This document shows positions 10,102-62,111 of a stretch of 64,000 bases of DNA, piece after piece. The notes beneath the pieces are model-generated. The model ran no database searches. It was not told where the DNA came from and saw only the letters and a program-made list of their open reading frames with translations. Position numbers and translations under genes: made by a program. Within the stretch, counting starts at the first letter, position 1. Every line of letters begins with the position of its first letter. The DNA is from Elusimicrobia bacterium UBA6262 (GTDB lineage: Bacteria > CAYTYR01 > UBA6262), in NCBI GenBank assembly GCA_002441095.1, contig DJVG01000043.1, forward strand, positions 2,254 to 66,253, written 5' to 3'.

Positions 10102-10219
10102 TAAGCACCCTACGCTAAAAGTAATTCCAAATTACAAATTTCAAATGACAAATTAAGGAATTCTGTGTGATCTCTGTTCTAATCTGTGTAATCTCTTTTT
10201 CTAATCGGTGTAATCATGT
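10102..10219. repeat. intergenic array of CTGTGTAATC / GGTGTAATC motifs (GATTACACAG family) ending in TAATCGGTGTAATCAT
   Basis: tctgtgtgatctctgttctaatctgtgtaatctctttttctaatcggtgtaatcat; identical 16-mer taatcggtgtaatcat recurs at ~20008. Confidence 0.6.
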
Positions 10220-12412: not shown

Positions 12413-12590
12413 GGTTTTACCCCCATTGGTCAGAGTATCAGGATATCAGGATATCAGGCTATCAGGTTTTCCTGATAATCTGATTACCTGATACCCTGTT
12501 GTCCTGATCCATAATCTCCTGATATTCTCACCCTGATTACCTGATATTCTGATATCCTTATTTATTTTTCTATTATACTTTATTGCCTGG
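12413..12590. repeat. ATCAGG x4 / CCTGAT x8 opposed-repeat element (long imperfect palindrome) in glnN upstream region
   Basis: gtatcaggatatcaggatatcaggctatcagg...cctgataatctgattacctgataccctgttgtcctgatccataatctcctgatattctcaccctgattacctgatattctgatatcc. Confidence 0.7.
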
Positions 12591-16000: not shown

Positions 16001-16133
16001 AATAAGTTATAAACTACGGGTATCAGGTAATCAGGGGACCAGGGAGTGGATATCAGGAAATCAGGACAGCAGGTCTTACCTGATACTCTGATAACCTGAT
16101 TCCCTCTACCTGATAACCTGTTATCCTGATGTC
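16001..16133. repeat. ATCAGG / CCTGAT opposed-repeat element (same family as 12413-12590)
   Basis: ggtatcaggtaatcaggggaccagggagtggatatcaggaaatcaggacagcagg...cctgatactctgataacctgattccctctacctgataacctgttatcctgatgtcc; lies between znuC-like stop and znuB-like start. Confidence 0.7.
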
Positions 16134-19923: not shown

Positions 19924-20017
19924 AAAATCCTTTTGGATTACACAGATTACGAAAAGCGATTACACAGATAGAACGAAAGCTAGTAATCAGTGTAATCTCT
20001 CTTAATAATCGGTGTAA
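19924..20017. repeat. GATTACACAG x2 ... CAGTGTAATC / CGGTGTAATC inverted motif array (same family as 10102-10219)
   Basis: ggattacacagattacgaaaagcgattacacagatagaac...gtaatcagtgtaatctctcttaataatcggtgtaatcat. Confidence 0.65.
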
Positions 20018-20326
20018 TCATTTGCTAGATTTGATCATTATGAGCATCATTTTAAATTTCTTGGTGGCTATTAAGGCATGCGGGCGACCCGCCGGCAGTT
20101 TTACCAGGTCCCCCTTGACCGCGCGTTGCGGTTTGCCAGCGATAGTTATTTCGGCTTCCCCGTCAACAAGATAAACCAGGGCATCGAAGGGAGCTGTATG
20201 CTCGCTTAATCCTTGCCCTTGATCGAATGAAAAAAGGGTCACGGTCCCGGTGTCTTTTTTAATCACGGTACGGCTGACCACCGCCCCTTTCTGGTAGGCT
20301 ATCATCTTATTTAACTGCATTTTCAT
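20018..20326 (-). CDS. cupin-domain protein
   Basis: 102 aa; GEAEITIAGKPQRAVKGDLVKLPAGRPHAL cupin beta-barrel motif. Confidence 0.55.
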   Translation of the reverse strand: MKMQLNKMIAYQKGAVVSRTVIKKDTGTVTLFSFDQGQGLSEHTAPFDALVYLVDGEAEITIAGKPQRAVKGDLVKLPAGRPHALIATKKFKMMLIMIKSSK

Positions 20327-20560
20327 CTTCCCTTTACCTGAAGTATCCTGGCTTCCCGCAGTGCCAATTGATCCTCCCTTTTTTAAGTGTGCCAGTGCTC
20401 GAGTTGCCAGTCAGAACAAGAACAGTGACCAGGTGTAAGTTTTGGAAGTAAGTTTGGTCTGAGGTCTATGGGTATTAGGCTCTAACCCACAACTTCAGAC
20501 CTACTTCCATACCTACTTCTACAACCTTCACCCTATCACTACTGATTCTCGTATTTACTG

Positions 20561-22039
20561 TTAAGCCCAGCGCAGACTGCGTTGTACTGCTTGCCGCCAC
20601 TTGTCATAGTAATCGGCACTGATTTTTTCATCTAACTGCGGTTGAAATATACGGTCTTTAGTAATAATCTTCTTAAATTCCTCTTTGCTCCAGAATTTCG
20701 CTCTGAAGCCGCTAACTCCCGCGGCGCCGAGCGCGGTAGTTTCATTCATGGTGGTACGCTCAATAGCGATCCTGGCAATATCAGCCTGGAATTGCATTAG
20801 AAAGTTATTCGCTGCCGCACCGCCATCCACCCGCGCTACGGCCAGCTTCTGCTTCATCGTCACCTGCATTTCATCTACTACTTCTCTTACCTGATAAGCC
20901 ATGGCTTCCAATGCCGCCCGGGCAATATTAGCCGTGGTTGTTTTCCTGGTCAAGCCGATGATCAGGCCGCGCGCTTGCGGATCCCAATAAGGAGCTCCTA
21001 ATCCCTGCAGCGCCGGCACAAAATATACCCCCTCATTACTTTCGAGCGCATTAGCCATGGATTCACTATCACTGGCCTGATCAATGATCTGCAATCCATC
21101 CCGCAGCCATTGCAGGGCCGCCCCGCCAATAAAAATACTGCCTTCCAAGGCATAGTTTACCTCTCCGCCTATTTTCCAGGCCACGGTTGTCACCAGCCGT
21201 TCTGAACGGCAGAGTTCTTTTAAGGTATTGGCCATGGCAAAAATCCCTGTGCCATAAGTGACTTTAGCCAGGTCTTTATCCCAACCGCACTGGGCCAGCA
21301 GGGCTGCCTGCTGGTCTCCTAAAATGCCGGTAATAGGGATTTCCCGTCCCACAAACTTCTTATCCAATAACCCGAAAATAGCATCAGAATCCCTTACCTC
21401 CGGCAATATTGCTGCTGGTATATCAAATATTTTCAATAATTCCTGGTCAAAATGCATCTGGTTAATATCAAAGAGCAGGGTGCGGGAAGCATTACTGGGA
21501 TCAGTAGCATGCGCTTTGCCACCGGTCAAGTTCCATAAGAGCCAAGTATCAGGAGTGCCAAAAATAATTTCTCCGCGATCGATCTTCTCTTTAACTCCGG
21601 GGACCTGGTTTATCAGCCAGGAAATTTTGGTAGCGGAAAAATAAGGGTCCAGGAATAAGCCGGTTTTTTGTTTAATTAGCTCCTGATGAACAGCCAGCTG
21701 CCGGCACATTTTTCCCGTGCGGCGGTCTTGCCAGACAATGGCATTATGAACCGGTTGGCCAGAGTTCTTGTCCCAGAGGATCGAAGTTTCCCGCTGATTA
21801 GTAATACCGATACACTCAATATTTTCCGGCCCAACTATGGCTGCCACATCCTGAAAAGCTTGTAAAGAGGTCTTTAGGATTGCCTGGGGCTCGTGCTCTA
21901 CCCAGCCAGCCTGCGGGAATATTTGCGGAAATTCATAGTAGGATCTAGCCGCGACAGTACCATCCCGGTTAAAAGCCATTACCCGGTTACCGGTCGTACC
22001 CAGATCAAATGCTACAATTACTTTAGGCTTCATCATCAC
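20561..22039 (-). CDS. glpK: glycerol kinase
   Basis: 492 aa FGGY kinase; AFDLGTTGNR, WVEHEP, GTGIFAM motifs typical of GlpK. Confidence 0.9.
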   Translation of the reverse strand: MMMKPKVIVAFDLGTTGNRVMAFNRDGTVAARSYYEFPQIFPQAGWVEHEPQAILKTSLQAFQDVAAIVGPENIECIGITNQRETSILWDKNSGQPVHNAIVWQDRRTGKMCRQLAVHQELIKQKTGLFLDPYFSATKISWLINQVPGVKEKIDRGEIIFGTPDTWLLWNLTGGKAHATDPSNASRTLLFDINQMHFDQELLKIFDIPAAILPEVRDSDAIFGLLDKKFVGREIPITGILGDQQAALLAQCGWDKDLAKVTYGTGIFAMANTLKELCRSERLVTTVAWKIGGEVNYALEGSIFIGGAALQWLRDGLQIIDQASDSESMANALESNEGVYFVPALQGLGAPYWDPQARGLIIGLTRKTTTANIARAALEAMAYQVREVVDEMQVTMKQKLAVARVDGGAAANNFLMQFQADIARIAIERTTMNETTALGAAGVSGFRAKFWSKEEFKKIITKDRIFQPQLDEKISADYYDKWRQAVQRSLRWA

Positions 22040-22044
22040 GCCTT

Positions 22045-22310
22045 TGGCTCAGTAAGAACGAAGAGCAGTCAGAACGAAAAGCAGTAGAAACGAGGAGCAG
22101 TCAGAACGAAAAGCAGTAAAACATAATTACAGTCATTACGAGGAACAGTTGCCAGTAAGTAAAAAAACAGTAAGCGCTAATCTTTATTAGTTACTATCAA
22201 ATGACTCTCGCTGCTTTTGTTTTTCGTTTTGACTGCCTTTCATTCTTACTGCTCTTTGCTTTGACTGCTCTTCGTCTTTACTGCTTCTTGCTTTGACTTA
22301 TTAACTCCGC
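22045..22310. repeat. tandem CAGTCAGAACGAAAAGCAGTA units (22045-22140) and inverted copies TACTGCTTTTCGTTTTGACTG (22200-22310): long imperfect inverted repeat
   Basis: gagcagtcagaacgaaaagcagtagaaacgaggagcagtcagaacgaaaagcagtaaaac ... ctgcttttgtttttcgttttgactgcc...tactgctctttgctttgactgctcttcgtctttactgcttcttgctttgac; related copy at ~20395-20430. Confidence 0.7.
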
Positions 22311-22713
22311 CAGGGAAATTCTTGGCATATTTAGCGATCCATTCCTGCGCTGCTTCCCGGCCATCAAGGATACGGCCCTCTCGTTCAGCTATTTCTTTCT
22401 TGTAGTGCTGGATATAACAAACCTGTTCCACCATCCTGGTCCGGAAGGATTCCCTGGCTTCGTCAAATTTGACTCCGATATCAAACAGGTCACCCTTTTT
22501 TTTACACCACACTACCCGGGCCTTGGTTTCAAAAGGAGGCTGGCTGACCGGGATCTTGATATCGAGCAATGTCCCTTTTTCCACATAGTGGTCAGCTTGC
22601 AAGGAAAGGCCGCCCGCGCTGATATTATTCAGCCTCTGCTCACGCGGAGAAACCAGGGCCAAGTGATGTATCTCAATGGGAATATCTGCTGGATGTCTGA
22701 TAAAATTTCTCAT
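22246..22713 (-). CDS. PilZ-domain (c-di-GMP-binding) protein
   Basis: RNFIRHP (RxxxR) and NISAGGLSL (D/NxSxGG) motifs; 3' end (KTKSSQSKEQ) is encoded by the inverted-repeat DNA. Confidence 0.6.
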   Translation of the reverse strand: MRNFIRHPADIPIEIHHLALVSPREQRLNNISAGGLSLQADHYVEKGTLLDIKIPVSQPPFETKARVVWCKKKGDLFDIGVKFDEARESFRTRMVEQVCYIQHYKKEIAEREGRILDGREAAQEWIAKYAKNFPGGVNKSKQEAVKTKSSQSKEQ

Positions 22714-22797
22714 ATATATAATAGTAATCCCTGTTACTTATCTGGTCAAGCGCAAAATATTTTTTTTACCATTTTTATTGCTATATTAATTTCCTAG

Positions 22798-54910: not shown

Positions 54911-55001
54911 GCAAGCAAGTAAAAAGGGAATTAGTTTTTACCCGATATTCTGGTATCCTGATAACCTCTTCCTGATCTCCTGATTCCCTGATATCCTCAA
55001 T
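54911..55001. repeat. CCTGAT x5 repeat element (same family as 12413-12590, one arm only)
   Basis: atattctggtatcctgataacctcttcctgatctcctgattccctgatatcctc. Confidence 0.6.
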
Positions 55002-56912: not shown

Positions 56913-57038
56913 TTCTTTTCCTTTCGCTCTCCGAAACCGTATATCGATTCCTAGCTTCTATTCGGGCCTCGTATCCGTTTACCGTATACCAAGCTTCTAT
57001 TCGGGCTTCGTTACCGTACACCGTATACCGAGCTTTTA
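56913..57038. repeat. tandem ~44-bp AGCTTCTATTCGGGCYTCGT-TCCGTTTACCGTATACC units flanking the four-helix-bundle gene
   Basis: agcttctattcgggcctcgtatccgtttaccgtataccaagcttctattcgggcttcgttaccgtacaccgtataccgagctt. Confidence 0.6.
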
Positions 57039-60000
57039 TTATCCGTCATAAGACTGTTCTAAGTCCAGCTTATCTGCTTTTTTCTTGGATTCCAGTATCT
57101 TCTTGTATTCCAGCGGCATGACCTTGATGAATTTCCCGCGCTGGCCCTCAAAATCAGCCAGTACTTTTTGCGCGTATTCACTGCCAGTGTATTTTTTGTG
57201 GTTTTCCAGCAGGTTTTTTATTATGCCCGCATCATCTTCATTAACAATATCCAATTCCACCATATCCTGGTTGCACCTGGCTGGGAAATTACCGTCTTCA
57301 TCAAGTATATAGGCTACGCCGCCGCTCATGCCAGCCGCGAAATTGCGCCCGGTACTGCCCAGGACCACGATCCTGCCACCGGTCATGTATTCACAACCAT
57401 GGTCGCCTACACCTTCCACTACCGCGTTTAATCCGGAATTCCTGATACAGAATCTTTCCCCAGCCCGGCCGCAAATATAAGCTTCCCCGGTGATGGCTCC
57501 GTAAAAAGTAGTATTTCCGATTATAATATTCTCTTCCGGCCGGTAATCTGATTTCCGGTCAGGATAAATTATTATCTTCCCGCCGGAGATGCCTTTACCG
57601 ACATAGTCATTAGCCAGTCCTTCCAGCTCGAAAGTCACGCCTCTGGCCAGCCACGCACCGAAACTCTGCCCAGCCATGCCCTTGAATTTAAAATTAATAG
57701 AATCTTCCGGCAAGCCAGCTTCGCCATATTTTTTACAAACTTCGCCGCTCAACATGGCGCCGGTCGTGCGATTGGTATTTTTGATTGTGAGCTCTACTTT
57801 GATCGGTTCCTTTTTTTCCAGCGCTGGTTTGGCCAGGACGATCAATTGCCGGTCCAGCACCTTATCTATATTATGGTTTTGTTTAATGATCTGGTGTGTT
57901 TCAATATTTATATTGGCCTTCGGCTGGTATAACATCCGGGAATAATCCAGACCTTTGGTTTTCCAGTCTAGCATATCCTTGTTCAGCTCCAGCAGGTCTG
58001 TCCGGCCGACCATATCTTCCAAGGTAGGAGTGCCTAATCCTGCCATGATCTCCCGCAGTTCTTCGGCTACTAAACGGAAATAATTCACCAGGTATTCTGG
58101 TTTACCGCGGAACCGTTTGCGCAACTCTTCATCCTGGGTGCAAACCCCGACCGAGCAATTATTCAAATGGCAATGCCTCAGCATCACGCAGCCTAATACA
58201 ACCAGGGCAGCAGTGCCGAACCCGAATTCTTCGGCTCCGAGCATTGCGGCTATGGCCAGGTCCCGTCCGGTGCGCATTTGTCCGTCAGCCTGCAGGCGGA
58301 CCCGGCTCCTCAGGTCATTGAGCACCAGGGTCTGGTGCGTTTCTGATAATCCCAGCTCCCAGGGCAGGCCGGCATGCTTGACCGAGCTCAACGGTGACGC
58401 TCCGGTGCCGCCATCCCCGCCGGAGATCAGGATCATGTCAGCATGGCCCTTGGCCACGCCCGCGGCTACGGTCCCTACGCCGATCTCTGATACCAGCTTG
58501 ACGCTGACGCGCGCTGTAGGATTAGTATTTTTCAGGTCGAAGATCAACTGGGCCAGGTCTTCGATAGAATAAATGTCATGATGCGGCGGCGGTGAGATCA
58601 GCGTTACGCCCGGAGTAGTGTAACGGGTTTTGGCGATCGTCACGCTTACCTTATGACCGGGTAACTGTCCGCCTTCACCTGGTTTCGCGCCTTGGGATAT
58701 CTTTATCTGCAATTCATCGGCATTGACCAGGTAATTGGTAGTTACACCGAAACGGCCGGATGCGACTTGTTTAATAGCGCTGCGCACCGAATCCCCGTTC
58801 GGTAATGGCGCGAACCTGGCTGGATCCTCTCCACCCTCTCCGGTATTGGACTTACCGCCTAAACGGTTCATGGCCATAGCCATGGTTTCATGAGTTTCCT
58901 TACTGATCGAGCCGAAGCTCATAGCTCCGGTCACAAAATGTTTGACCAGGTTTTCTATTGGTTCTACTTTATCCAAAGAAATCGGCTTGGCCTTTTTTAA
59001 TTTCAGCAAACTGCGCAAAGTGGTCGGATGTCCCGATTGGTCATTGATCAGACCGGCGAATTCTTTATACTTCCCGTAATCCCCGTTGCGCGTAGCATCC
59101 TGCAGAGCGGCAATGCTTTCAGGATTCCACAAATGGTATTCCCCGTCCCTTTTCCACTGGTATAACCCGCCGGTGATCAAATACGGGGTCTTGAATTCAT
59201 CGCGCAAAGGATAGGCCTGCTGATGGCGCAAAATGGTTTCCCGGGCCAGGATTTTCATATCCGCTCCGCCGATGCGGGAAACAGTGCCGGCAAAACATCT
59301 CTCGATCACGTCGTCAGCCAAACCAAGAGCTTCATAGATCTGGGCGCCGCGGTAGCTTTGCAAAGTGGAAATACCCATTTTCGAAAGCACTTTTTTAATG
59401 CCCTTGTTAATAGCTTTAATATAATTATCGACTGCCTTGTCCAGTCGGAGATGCACTTCCCCTTCCAGGATCAGGTGCTCGATAGCTTCATACGCCAGGT
59501 AAGGATTAACAACTCCCGCGCCAAAAGCCAGCAAGAGAGTGAAGTGATTCACTTCCCTGGGTTCCGCGCTTTCTACAATTATGGCGATCTGCGCGCGCAA
59601 TCCTTTTTTTACCAGGTATTGGTGGACTGCCCCGGTAGCCAGCAGGGCTGGCAACGCGGCTTGTTTCCGGCTGGTGCCCCGGTCGCTCAAAATAATAAAA
59701 GTAAACCCTTCGCTGATCGCTTCCCGCGCATCGGCGCAGATACGGTCGAGAGCTTTCAGGAATTCTTTTTCATCTTCTGCTTCGTTCCCATTGACCGGGA
59801 ACAGGATCGAGATCCGCTTGGCGCGGAATCCGGGCTCTTTAATAGAATGTATCCGGGTCAGCTCATCGTTAGTAATGACTGGCAGCGGTACCCTGAGCTT
59901 GCGGCAATTTTGCGGTACTTCTTCCATTAAATTCTTTCGCGGGCCCATAAAGCTTTCCAGGCTCATGACCAGTTCTTCCCGGATCGGGTCGATCGGCGGA

Positions 60001-61592: not shown

Positions 61593-61752
61593 TTACGTTA
61601 CCTCTTTTATCCAAGAACCGAGATTTGATTATGGAATTCGATAAAAATTCTCTTCATATTTTTTTCTAAAAAGATGCTTACATACCCGTGCGAGTATGCG
61701 CGCTTCTTTTTAGAAAAAAATATTTTGAGCTTTTTCATCTCGGTTCTCATAA
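61593..61752. promoter_or_regulatory. gltB upstream region with nested inverted repeats (GAACCGAGAT...ATCTCGGTTC outer; TTTCTAAAAAG...CTTTTTAGAAA inner)
   Basis: ccaagaaccgagatttg...tttttctaaaaagatgcttacatacccgtgcgagtatgcgcgcttctttttagaaaaaaata...ttcatctcggttctcat. Confidence 0.4.
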
Positions 61753-62073
61753 CTAATCTCGGCTCTCGGATTTCCATCTCGTGATGTCAATGCCCAGTTT
61801 CTTGATCTTGGTACGGAGAGTATTCCTATTTATACCTAATATCCTGGCAGTTTTCAACTGGTTTCCTGCGGTTTGTTCCAAAACAAAATCAATCAGCTGT
61901 TTTTCAACCTTGGCCATGACCGTCTTGTAGAGGATCCCGCTTTTTTCTTCTACCACACCATATCCTTCGGCCTTGAGCATCTGGCTGACTATTTTCTGGA
62001 TCTTTTTTTCGTTTTCCGCGATCAAGACAGTGATCATAGAACAATCCTTTTCCAGGCACAGCCTTTTGTGCAT
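61753..62073 (-). CDS. small Fis-type HTH (HTH_8) DNA-binding protein
   Basis: 106 aa; QLIDFVLEQTAGNQLKTARILGINRNTLRTKIKKLGI = NtrC/Fis C-terminal HTH. Confidence 0.6.
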   Translation of the reverse strand: MHKRLCLEKDCSMITVLIAENEKKIQKIVSQMLKAEGYGVVEEKSGILYKTVMAKVEKQLIDFVLEQTAGNQLKTARILGINRNTLRTKIKKLGIDITRWKSESRD

Positions 62074-62111
62074 TTTTTGCCTATACTTTAATCACTTCCG
62101 GCTAAAAAAAA

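What the first reader, a model, noticed from the sequence alone, without database searches (positions are those of the whole stretch)
20380..22310. glpK flanked on both sides by CAGTCAGAAC(G/A)A(A/G)AACAGT repeats, with a ~270-bp imperfect inverted repeat upstream
Downstream of glpK is a single copy, gccagtcagaacaagaacagtgacc, at ~20400. Upstream are two tandem copies at 22063-22130. They are followed, after an ~60-bp spacer, by their reverse complement repeated about three times at 22205-22305. The last arm encodes the low-complexity tail (KTKSSQSKEQ) of the PilZ gene. The structure could form a very large hairpin. The flanking arrangement suggests glpK sits in a repeat-bounded cassette, or that the upstream structure is a riboregulatory element or sRNA.
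Basis: seen in the sequence. Interest (0 to 1): 0.5.

Follow-up and report, generated by a model that had tools for sequence, protein, structure and literature searches.

The report
Repeat-built hairpins bracketing glpK
The glycerol kinase gene of this uncultured bacterium has on each side a long DNA palindrome built from 16-base repeats; the kind of structure is known from other bacteria, but this family has so far been found only next to glpK and is better conserved than neutral sites.

Summary
At 22050-22299, two opposed arrays of a 16-nt unit (CAGTMAGAACGARRAG, 32-nt super-unit) form a ~250-nt imperfect palindrome: arms 73-80% complementary, RNA fold -104.8 kcal/mol, z = -7.3. The outer units of its 5' arm supply the PilZ tail by read-through. 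Downstream of glpK (20395-20560) is a gutted second copy. Its centre is now an unrelated hairpin, 89% identical to one at a non-orthologous site in a relative.

glpK is not a mobile cassette: gene order is the same in relatives without the repeats. No sRNA or riboswitch signature was found. Six related lineages have a conserved intrinsic terminator at this junction. Two (L088, L094) carry homologous repeat hairpins, L094 on both sides of glpK. Carriers are polyphyletic on the glpK tree.

The elements are 70-79% identical between genomes whose glpK four-fold sites are only 48-55% identical. That means constraint or later spread.

Similar hairpins built from other short units fill other gaps in the window. 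The kind resembles the convergent heptamer arrays of Xanthomonas and REP/BIME elements.

Best reading: a transcribed intercistronic stem-loop that brackets glpK. That function is inferred, not shown. It is a new variant of a known kind, of moderate interest.

The parts
22220..22299 (-). 5' arm in transcript sense. It has five 16-nt units: AAGTCAAAGCAAGAAG, CAGTAAAGACGAAGAG, CAGTCAAAGCAAAGAG, CAGTAAGAATGAAAGG, CAGTCAAAACGAAAAA. The outer ~3.4 units (22246-22299) are translated as the PilZ tail.
   Evidence: PilZ ORF
22146..22219 (-). Asymmetric centre of the palindrome. It contains degenerate units, the conserved core ...AAAGATTAGCGCTTACTG...TACTGGCAAC..., and an AT-rich apex.
   Evidence: The core is conserved in L088 and L094.
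22050..22145 (-). 3' arm in transcript sense, with six units. On the + strand they read CAGTAAGAACGAAGAG, CAGTCAGAACGAAAAG, CAGTAGAAACGAGGAG, CAGTCAGAACGAAAAG, CAGTAAAACATAATTA, CAGTCATTACGAGGAA. The arm ends 5 nt before the glpK Shine-Dalgarno sequence.
22246..22713 (-). PilZ-domain gene (155 aa). Orthologues are 139-140 aa from the conserved MRNFIRHP start. The extra 15 residues come from reading into the repeat array until an in-frame TAA.
   Evidence: Pfam PF07238; orthologue C-termini
20561..22039 (-). glpK, glycerol kinase (FGGY_N + FGGY_C). The likely start is the ATG at 22033, matching the public 490-aa form.
20536..20560 (-). Downstream element, outer-stem arm B (CAGTAAATACGAGAATCAGTAGTGA in glpK sense), directly after the glpK stop codon. 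It matches L088:675-695 at 21 of 21 bases.
20395..20432 (-). Downstream element, outer-stem arm A (...TCACTGTTCTTGTTCTGACTGGCAACTCGAGCAC). It is a 16-mer-family remnant containing the GTTGCCAGT core, also seen at 22147-22171.
   Evidence: (D3)
20444..20526 (-). Nested inner hairpin from a different family (12-nt units, GGAAGTAGGTnT). It occupies the centre of the downstream element. It is 89% identical over 84 nt to L093:8781-8864, which lies at a non-orthologous junction.
   Evidence: (I6)
20327..20394 (-). Right flank of the downstream element: the Shine-Dalgarno sequence and first five codons (LALRE) of a deleted PEMT gene, then the cupin gene start.
   Evidence: PEMT is intact in L086, L088, L092, L094.
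22721..22749 (-). The only sigma-70-like promoter match near the locus (TTGACC-17-TACTAT), upstream of PilZ. It implies that PilZ, the hairpin and glpK are co-transcribed.
   Evidence: a consensus match only

Best explanation
What it is:
- The feature is a ~250-bp imperfect palindrome whose two arms are opposed tandem arrays of a 16-nt unit with a 32-nt super-unit.
- It belongs to a small family whose five known copies all lie directly beside glpK. Upstream copies occur in this window, L088 and L094. Downstream copies occur in L094 and, as a gutted remnant with a foreign hairpin nested in its centre, in this window.
- It is one example of a wider class in this uncultured, Elusimicrobiota-labelled clade: long hairpins without a U-tract, built from short tandem units of 8, 12, 16 or 22 nt. 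They fill the gaps between co-directional genes, where relatives have simple terminator hairpins.

Proposed mechanism:
- The element is transcribed as part of a PilZ-glpK mRNA from the promoter upstream of PilZ.
- It folds into a long imperfect stem-loop.
- Together with the downstream hairpin it brackets the glpK cistron. It would act as an intercistronic RNA structure: a substrate for a double-strand-specific RNase and/or a barrier to exonucleases and read-through. That would uncouple glpK mRNA from its neighbours.
- It takes the place of the intrinsic terminator that sits at this junction in six related lineages.

Origin: the arrays grew by duplication of 32-nt super-units mirrored on both arms. 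The PilZ tail is an accidental read-through product.

Shown: the anatomy, the position, homology across lineages, replacement of the terminator, conservation above the neutral level, and the nesting. Inferred: transcription, folding in the cell, the RNA-level function, and the growth mechanism.
For: - Structure and statistics.
- No promoter-like or terminator-like site lies between PilZ and glpK, and there is one promoter match upstream of PilZ.
- The same junction in L083, L084/85, L086/87, L089/93, L091 and L092 holds a 13-bp-stem terminator with a T-run and three covarying pairs.
- In L088 the glpK-downstream site holds a small terminator where the window has the composite hairpin.
- Homologous elements occur in L088 (shorter) and in L094 (both flanks).
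- Element identity between genomes is 70-79%, and 86-89% for the nested element. glpK four-fold degenerate sites are 48-55% identical. Controls with the 16-nt blocks permuted score far lower.
- Unit number and order are preserved between win_up and L094_dn, and both fold at about -96 kcal/mol.
- There are fewer broken pairs than expected: 13 against ~18, P ~ 0.03-0.05.
- Class context: five window gaps hold repeat-built hairpins with z from -3 to -5.5.
- Noncoding DNA is 4.8% of the window but holds 8 of 8 GATTACAC sites and most of the strong tandem arrays.
- Relatives have their own unit families at the same junctions.
- The PilZ tail is absent from all orthologues.
Against: - There are no expression data, so transcription and folding are assumed.
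- There is no U-tract, so the element cannot be equated with a canonical terminator.
- Compensatory double substitutions are not enriched (2-3 observed, 1.3-1.8 expected). The conservation therefore looks at least as much like sequence constraint as pairing constraint, which fits a protein-binding DNA or RNA site as well.
- Six lineages do without the element.
- Carriers are polyphyletic on the glpK tree (0 of 300 bootstraps monophyletic; L088+L092 98%). A simple vertically inherited functional element does not predict that.
- Restriction of the family to glpK flanks rests on only ~64 kb plus ~63 kb of sequence.
Confidence: 0.45

Rival explanations
1. A DNA-level protein-binding array. The phased CAGT...ACGA units, 16 bp apart (32 bp is about three helical turns), would be operators for a glycerol regulator such as a DeoR/GlpR-type repressor, or for a nucleoid protein. 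Clusters on both sides of glpK would allow looping.
For: - Sequence is conserved, not only pairing, and there is little compensatory change.
- CAGT is nearly invariant at the start of each unit across copies.
- All five known copies are beside glpK.
- The units contain AACGAA, which also occurs in the E. coli GlpR operator consensus. This comes from my own knowledge, is a six-base match, and is weak.
Against: - No regulator gene is present in the conserved neighbourhood.
- Six lineages have only a terminator at this site.
- Analogous hairpins with unrelated units sit at many other junctions. That argues for a general structural class rather than a gene-specific operator.
- An operator array does not need mirror-image arms.
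Confidence: 0.2
2. A non-autonomous mobile palindromic element (MITE- or REP-like) that homes to terminator hairpins and replaces them, possibly moved in trans by a Y1 (RAYT/IS200-like) or other transposase.
For: - The nested inner hairpin is 89% identical to a copy at a non-orthologous junction in L093.
- Hairpin-in-hairpin nesting is also seen at L093:12285-12495.
- Carriers are polyphyletic.
- Elements are more similar than neutral sites.
- Window downstream arm B matches L088's upstream element 21 of 21 bases, although the window's own upstream copy has diverged at that point.
- A 332-aa Y1_Tnp gene lies next to glpK in L093.
Against: - For the 16-mer family itself, every copy is at one of the same two sites beside glpK. 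There is none elsewhere in the window or in the relatives' loci.
- No target-site duplication or distinct terminal inverted repeat is seen at the junctions (by inspection).
- There is no GTAG or CGTC tag.
- The window encodes no Y1 transposase.
- Both metagenome pattern scans found nothing. They are uninformative, because the collection also missed the known source sample.
Confidence: 0.2
3. A neutral by-product. Replication slippage, plus intrastrand template switching at a former terminator hairpin, produced a self-complementary microsatellite with no function.
For: - The architecture is tandem repeats.
- There is a recent 32-nt duplication, with identical units at 22066 and 22098.
- The accidental PilZ tail shows that the arrays expand without regard to coding.
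- Copy number differs between L088 and the window.
Against: - Conservation is well above four-fold degenerate sites.
- Unit number and order are stable between win_up and L094_dn over the same divergence.
- Units within a copy are no more alike than units between copies, so there is no sign of ongoing homogenising slippage.
Confidence: 0.1
4. An independent small RNA gene or riboswitch-like leader controlling glpK, or a mobile or invertible glpK cassette bounded by the repeats.
For: - The region forms a large stable hairpin in the glpK 5' region.
- Repeats lie on both sides of glpK, in mutually inverted orientation in L094.
Against: - No promoter or terminator signals.
- No Rfam family.
- Absent from six relatives.
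- glpK has the same neighbours and orientation in all eleven loci examined.
- L094's two copies are only ~72% identical, which is too low for efficient homologous inversion.
Confidence: 0.05

Closest known systems
Convergent heptamer SSR arrays of Xanthomonas (GGGAATC) and Nostoc (GGGGAYT); the cyanobacterial tandem heptanucleotides (STRR) are mentioned in the same paper (PMC4692102)
   Same: Both are intergenic head-to-tail arrays of a short unit. They frequently occur as two nearby arrays in convergent orientation that could form stem-loops or cruciforms: 70-75 such pairs per Xanthomonas genome. Function is unknown in both cases.
   Different: Here the unit is 16 nt with a 32-nt super-unit, not 7 nt. 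It is not G-rich, so it has no quadruplex potential. The genome uses several unrelated unit families rather than one. This family has been seen only beside glpK. It is more conserved than neutral sites, and it hosts a nested foreign hairpin.
REP / BIME elements (repetitive extragenic palindromes; PMC3733652, PMC2817692)
   Same: Both are extragenic palindromes located mostly between co-directional or convergent genes and downstream of coding regions. They are probably transcribed and are proposed to act as RNA hairpins in mRNA stabilisation or termination. A genome can hold several families, and units cluster in opposite orientation into larger structures.
   Different: REPs are 20-40 bp palindromic units in high copy number, carry a GTAG or CGTC tag, and have an associated RAYT. 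Here the palindrome is ~250 bp and built from non-palindromic 16-nt direct repeats. No tag or RAYT is seen in the window, and copy number appears low.
   Same: Both are modular intergenic elements with a variable number of internal tandem units. They fold into long stable hairpins within transcripts and can affect expression of neighbouring genes.
   Different: BOX elements are a dispersed, high-copy family with defined end modules. No end modules or dispersal were found here.
Intrinsic (rho-independent) terminator
   Same: The element occupies exactly the position of a conserved terminator in six related lineages. It is a stable stem-loop at the end of a cistron.
   Different: The stem is AT-rich, ~90 bp and imperfect. 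It has no U-tract (and direct reading of the sequence).

Membership tests
Convergent intergenic SSR arrays (Xanthomonas/Nostoc type) | Head-to-tail tandem copies of a short unit in noncoding DNA | tested here: met
   TRF reports period 16/32 with 4.2-4.4 copies per arm. The arrays are intergenic except for 54 nt that are read as the PilZ tail.
Convergent intergenic SSR arrays (Xanthomonas/Nostoc type) | Two arrays close together in convergent orientation, one on each strand | tested here: met
   Arrays at 22050-22145 and 22220-22299 are reverse complements, 73-80% complementary.
Convergent intergenic SSR arrays (Xanthomonas/Nostoc type) | Unit of 6-9 nt; one dominant motif present genome-wide | tested here: not met
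   The unit is 16 nt. At least four unrelated unit families occur in 64 kb. This family is found only beside glpK.
REP / BIME | Palindromic unit of 20-40 bp | tested here: not met
   The palindrome is ~250 bp. Its 16-nt units are not themselves palindromic.
REP / BIME | Unpaired GTAG or CGTC tag at one end | tested here: not met
   The ends are CAGT.../...ACTG units, with no GTAG or CGTC tag at the junctions.
REP / BIME | High copy number, dispersed through the genome | tested here: inconclusive
   No copies were found away from glpK in the 64-kb window or in ~63 kb of relatives' loci. The complete genome was not available, and the metagenome scans returned nothing.
REP / BIME | Associated RAYT (Y1 transposase) gene | tested here: inconclusive
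   The window gives no tblastn hit to the L093 Y1_Tnp. A Y1_Tnp gene is present in relative L093. The rest of the genome is unseen.
MITE | Terminal inverted repeats with target-site duplications; insertion polymorphism at varied sites | tested here: not met
   No direct duplication is seen at the junctions in the window, L088 or L094 (inspection). All 16-mer-family copies lie at the same two sites. Only the nested 12-mer-family hairpin is at non-orthologous sites.
Intrinsic terminator | GC-rich stem followed by a U-tract | tested here: not met
   No terminator-like site lies in either gap. The sequence after the stem is AGCCAAAGGCGTG.
Known cis-regulatory RNA / sRNA family (Rfam) | Match to a curated covariance model at its gathering score | tested here: not met
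   The whole window gives 0 hits at gathering thresholds. In E-value mode only plant miRNA-precursor models match, at 19-28 bits against thresholds of 64-184.
Independent sRNA gene | Own promoter and terminator; conserved in relatives | tested here: not met
   There are no promoter-like or terminator-like sites. The element is absent from six of nine related lineages.
Composite transposon / mobile gene cassette | The gene between the repeats is found in different genomic contexts; a transposase is present | tested here: not met
   glpK keeps the same neighbours and orientation in all related loci. No transposase was found in the window.
DeoR/GlpR-type operator array | Match to the regulator's operator consensus, and a cognate regulator gene | not testable with these tools
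   Only a six-base resemblance (AACGAA) recalled from memory. No regulator gene is present in the conserved neighbourhood, and the full genome was unavailable.

The most novel reading that the evidence does not exclude
The two copies are a dedicated gene-bracketing module. A conserved ~260-nt structured element is placed in mutually inverted orientation on both sides of glpK, as in L094. The copies would fold locally, or pair 5' to 3' like the processing stems that flank ribosomal RNA, so that a double-strand RNase excises a discrete, end-protected glpK mRNA. The module would exist as an ancient alternative allele to a plain terminator and be exchanged among lineages. More broadly, the clade may harbour hairpin-nesting mini-elements, built of phased short units, that home to and replace terminators.
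Probability: 0.12. Interest if true: 0.65.

Novelty: new variant of a known kind. Interest (0 to 1): 0.4.

Why it matters
If the elements act as proposed, an uncultured lineage labelled Elusimicrobiota uses long stem-loops built from repeats, in place of canonical terminators, to delimit individual cistrons.

It would also mean that one such family has stayed tied to a single metabolic gene for as long as it took synonymous sites to saturate. That would be an unusually clear case of selection acting on a 'microsatellite-like' palindrome.

There is a practical point for annotation. These arrays extend neighbouring ORFs by accident, as with the PilZ tail here. They can also mislead gene callers, repeat finders and miRNA-type RNA models.

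If the elements are merely tolerated selfish or neutral palindromes, the finding is an ordinary addition to the catalogue of REP-like and SSR-like intergenic repeats.

Tried and rejected
- **Genome-contig scan with GlpK.** It returned only ~50%-identical homologues from other phyla. These were useless for conservation but were later reused as a control set.
- **Exact look-up of the 492-aa GlpK ORF.** It failed because the public protein starts two codons later.
- **L081 and L082.** Both are the same strain and are identical across the locus, so they say nothing about conservation.
- **Two metagenome pattern scans.** Both found nothing. The collection also failed to return the known JGI source of L082, so these are uninformative, not negative.
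- **P0008's contig.** It has a suggestive 152-nt PilZ-glpK gap, but its DNA was not retrievable.
- **Rfam.** Only generic long-hairpin noise.
- **Covariation in the nested element, window against L093.** Two sequences at 89% identity are uninformative.
- **Unit-register test between the arms.** No sharp diagonal, so there is no evidence for unit-by-unit mirrored descent.
- **Unit similarity within and between copies.** No concerted-evolution signal.
- **Carrier against non-carrier similarity in flanking coding sequence.** Only a marginal rise next to the element. The 3'-anchored glpK rows of that call are misaligned by a one-codon length difference and should be ignored.
- **Repeat arrays next to glpK as a cross-phylum regulatory feature.** Considered because Chitinophagaceae loci have 9-mer-built hairpins just upstream of glpK. 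Rejected as unproven: all control loci were selected through glpK, and the hits amount to about two independent events.
- **Internal terminator reading.** The T7 run at the hairpin apex is not conserved in L088.
Full report
**1. The observation**

glpK lies on the minus strand (20561-22039), downstream of a PilZ-domain gene (22246-22713) and upstream of a small cupin gene (20018-20326).

- Tandem Repeats Finder reports two arrays between PilZ and glpK. One is at 22050-22122: period 16, 4.2 copies, with a 32-nt super-period at 90% match. The other is at 22228-22298, with the same periods.
- The second array is the reverse complement of the first. The arms are 45-81 nt long and 73-80% complementary.
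- Unit by unit, the + strand carries six CAGTMAGAACGARRAG-like units at 22050-22145. The minus strand carries five at 22220-22299.
- The 16-mer with up to three mismatches occurs 11 times in the window, against 1.96 expected by chance. All 11 lie between 20408 and 22283.
- The transcript strand of 22030-22320 folds into one long imperfect stem-loop of -104.8 kcal/mol. Shuffles average -68.8 +/- 4.9, so z = -7.3.
Together they form the outer stem of a second long hairpin: -62.8 kcal/mol, z = -4.0.

**2. The PilZ tail is a by-product**

- PilZ orthologues are 139-140 residues from the conserved start. They end shortly after ...FPG.
- Here the reading frame runs 54 nt into the 5' arm, giving KSKQEAVKTKSSQSKEQ, until a CAGTAAG unit supplies an in-frame TAA.
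- Because 16 is not a multiple of 3, the frame shifts by one base with every unit.
- In L088 and L094, PilZ stops at the first unit.

The array is therefore the primary feature and the tail is incidental.

**3. Relatives**

Two public contigs encoding the identical PilZ protein are the same strain and add nothing. A protein search found GlpK relatives at 80-86% identity. One is labelled Elusimicrobia/Elusimicrobiota by its source. Contigs were obtained for nine lineages.

- The gene order PilZ-glpK-(PEMT)-cupin-deaminase-hypothetical-GH26-ZnuA-ABC is conserved, so glpK has not moved.
- In six lineages (L083, L084/85, L086/87, L089/93, L091, L092), the site immediately upstream of glpK holds a canonical terminator of the form AAACGGTTATRCCRC-loop-GYGGYATAACCGTTTTTTT. 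Its stem has 13 pairs, three of them covarying.
- L088 has a shorter, clearly homologous version of the repeat hairpin at that site.
- L094 has full-length versions on both sides of glpK, in gaps of 251 and 292 nt.
- L094's downstream copy matches the window's upstream element at 87% over 130 nt (E = 2e-30), and at 80% over 252 aligned columns. It has the same six units before the same asymmetric centre, but is inverted relative to glpK.
- The window's downstream element sits at the same site as L094's. The two share the right flank and the start of the PEMT gene. In the window PEMT has been deleted down to five codons.

The window's downstream copy is thus the remnant of a full copy.

**4. 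Nesting and a second, dispersed family**

- The centre of the window's downstream element (20444-20526) is a different hairpin, built from 12-nt units.
- It is 89% identical over 84 nt (E = 5e-20) to a hairpin in L093. That one lies between the ABC ATPase and permease genes, which is a non-orthologous junction.
- The orthologous junction in the window (16001-16133) holds yet another hairpin, made of ATCAGG 8-mers.
- Hairpin-within-hairpin nesting is also seen at L093:12285-12495.

At least this inner family has moved, or is an old multi-copy family.

**5. A genome-wide class**

- Among the window's larger intergenic gaps, five hold long hairpins without a U-tract whose arms are tandem arrays of short units:

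| Gap | z-score |
|---|---|
| 12413-12590 | -5.5 |
| 16001-16133 | -5.4 |
| 19924-20017 | -5.5 |
| 20327-20560 | -3.0 |
| 22040-22245 | -3.1 |

- Noncoding DNA is 4.8% of the window. It contains 8 of 8 GATTACAC sites, 23 of 114 ATCAGG sites (5.5 expected), and most of the strong tandem arrays.
- Relatives have their own unit families at the same junctions.
- With a simple TRF-based detector, opposed arrays occur at 3.1 per 100 kb in the window and in its relatives. The rate is 0.66 per 100 kb in 0.91 Mb of unrelated bacterial loci, though the counts are small.
- Some control hits show the same architecture in Bacteroidota, so the kind of structure is widespread.

**6. Constraint**

- Four-fold degenerate sites of glpK are 48-55% identical among these genomes.
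- The orthologous upstream elements are 70-73% identical. The window's upstream copy and L094's downstream copy are 79% identical. The nested element is 86-89% identical.
- Controls in which the 16-nt blocks of one sequence are permuted score far lower.
- Both full copies fold at about -96 kcal/mol.
- Substitutions break fewer pairs than random placement would: 13 against ~18 (P ~ 0.03-0.05). Compensatory doubles are not enriched.

The elements are therefore more conserved than neighbouring neutral sites, in sequence at least as much as in pairing. That means purifying selection, or spread more recent than the genome split.

**7. Distribution**

- On a bootstrapped GlpK tree, L088 (hairpin) and L092 (terminator) are sisters at 98%. 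The three carriers are never monophyletic (0 of 300 replicates).
- All carriers nevertheless share a PilZ C-terminus of G(V/I)N(K/E), which the non-carriers lack.
- Coding sequence beside the element is only marginally more similar among carriers.

The junction thus exists in two alternative states, each internally homologous, that do not follow the gene tree. I cannot tell whether this reflects recombination, repeated gain or repeated loss.

**8. How it most likely works**

- No sigma-70-like promoter or terminator-like site lies between PilZ and glpK.
- The only promoter match is upstream of PilZ, at 22749-22721.
- No Rfam family fits.

From this I infer the following:

- The element is transcribed within a PilZ-glpK mRNA and folds into a ~90-bp imperfect stem ending 5 nt before the glpK ribosome-binding site.
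- Together with the downstream hairpin it brackets the glpK cistron.
- It serves as an intercistronic structure, either a processing site for a double-strand-specific RNase or a barrier to exonucleases and read-through.
- It takes the place that a plain terminator occupies in six related lineages.

These steps are inference. The alternatives are given as rivals with their tests: a DNA-level protein-binding array, a REP/MITE-like mobile palindrome, and a neutral slippage product.

**9. Comparison with what is known**

- The nearest described phenomenon is the intergenic heptamer SSR of Xanthomonas and Nostoc. There, 70-75 pairs of arrays per genome lie in convergent orientation and could form stem-loops (PMC4692102).
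- REP/BIME elements share the location and the proposed RNA roles. They are defined by 20-40-bp palindromic units, a GTAG or CGTC tag, high copy number and an associated RAYT (PMC3733652). None of those features is met or demonstrable here.
- No report of such elements in Elusimicrobia was found in the held literature.

I file the feature as a new variant of a known kind.

**10. Verdict**

The cassette and sRNA readings are not supported. The large-hairpin and two-sided-flanking observations are correct and are conserved in another lineage. Interest is moderate (0.4).

Noticed in passing
window 12431-12561 and 16020-16130; one-armed array at 54944-54997; L093:12285-12495: Hairpins built from (T)ATCAGG(A) 8-mers facing CCTGATA(A) arrays (z about -5.5). 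The gap upstream of the GSIII-type glutamine synthetase gene carries ATCAGG arrays in both the window and L093. In L093 a nested CCCCTGC...GCGGGGACAGG hairpin is added. A one-armed array follows the gltD-like gene.
   Followed up: partly
window 10162-10215, 19936-20019, 31933, 49201; L083:1790-1830; L089/L091 cupin-deaminase gap: GATTACAC(AGAT) units, often 22 nt apart. All eight occurrences in the window are noncoding (0.4 expected). They form a hairpin between the deaminase and cupin genes. Related variants (ATTACGCGGAT) sit at the same junction in relatives.
   Followed up: partly
window 20327-20394: Remnant of a deleted PEMT-family methyltransferase gene. The Shine-Dalgarno sequence and the first five codons (LALRE) survive between the downstream hairpin and the cupin gene. 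The gene is intact in L086, L088, L092 and L094.
   Followed up: yes
L083:3950-3990, L084:3950-3990, L086:3935-3975, L091:870-910, L092:465-505, L093:3075-3115: A strongly conserved terminator (stem CGGTTATACC...), with three covarying pairs, lies 13-45 nt upstream of the glpK start, whatever gene precedes it. In some lineages that leaves no room for a promoter. It may be a regulated leader terminator (attenuator) for glpK.
   Followed up: partly
L017:5800-5950, L028:5795-5945, L061:5850-5935, L052:5870-5945 (Chitinophagaceae and other Bacteroidota): Hairpins whose arms are tandem GGTTAAARR 9-mers lie just upstream of glpK. L017 and L028 have an extra downstream copy of the 3' arm, an arrangement that would allow alternative pairing. 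L044:2660-2780 has a 7-mer-built hairpin just downstream of glpK.
   Followed up: partly
L093:1087-2085 and flanks 2086-2110, 2950-2980: A 332-aa Y1 (IS200/RAYT-like) transposase gene lies close to glpK in one relative. CGTATTGGGGTC-type repeats in inverted orientation lie nearby, and the PilZ gene is missing from this locus.
   Followed up: no
window 56935-57040: A 39-nt tandem repeat (2.7 copies, 80% match) lies in the gap between the 1517-aa glutamate synthase large-subunit gene and a 136-aa ORF.
   Followed up: no
window 61593-62111: A 519-nt gap with a very stable fold (z = -8.1). It includes a 49-nt-arm inverted repeat at 61640-61739. Part of the gap may be a small uncalled gene.
   Followed up: no
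window 1-64000: All but two of about 50 genes lie on the minus strand, and noncoding DNA is only 4.8% of the window.
   Followed up: no
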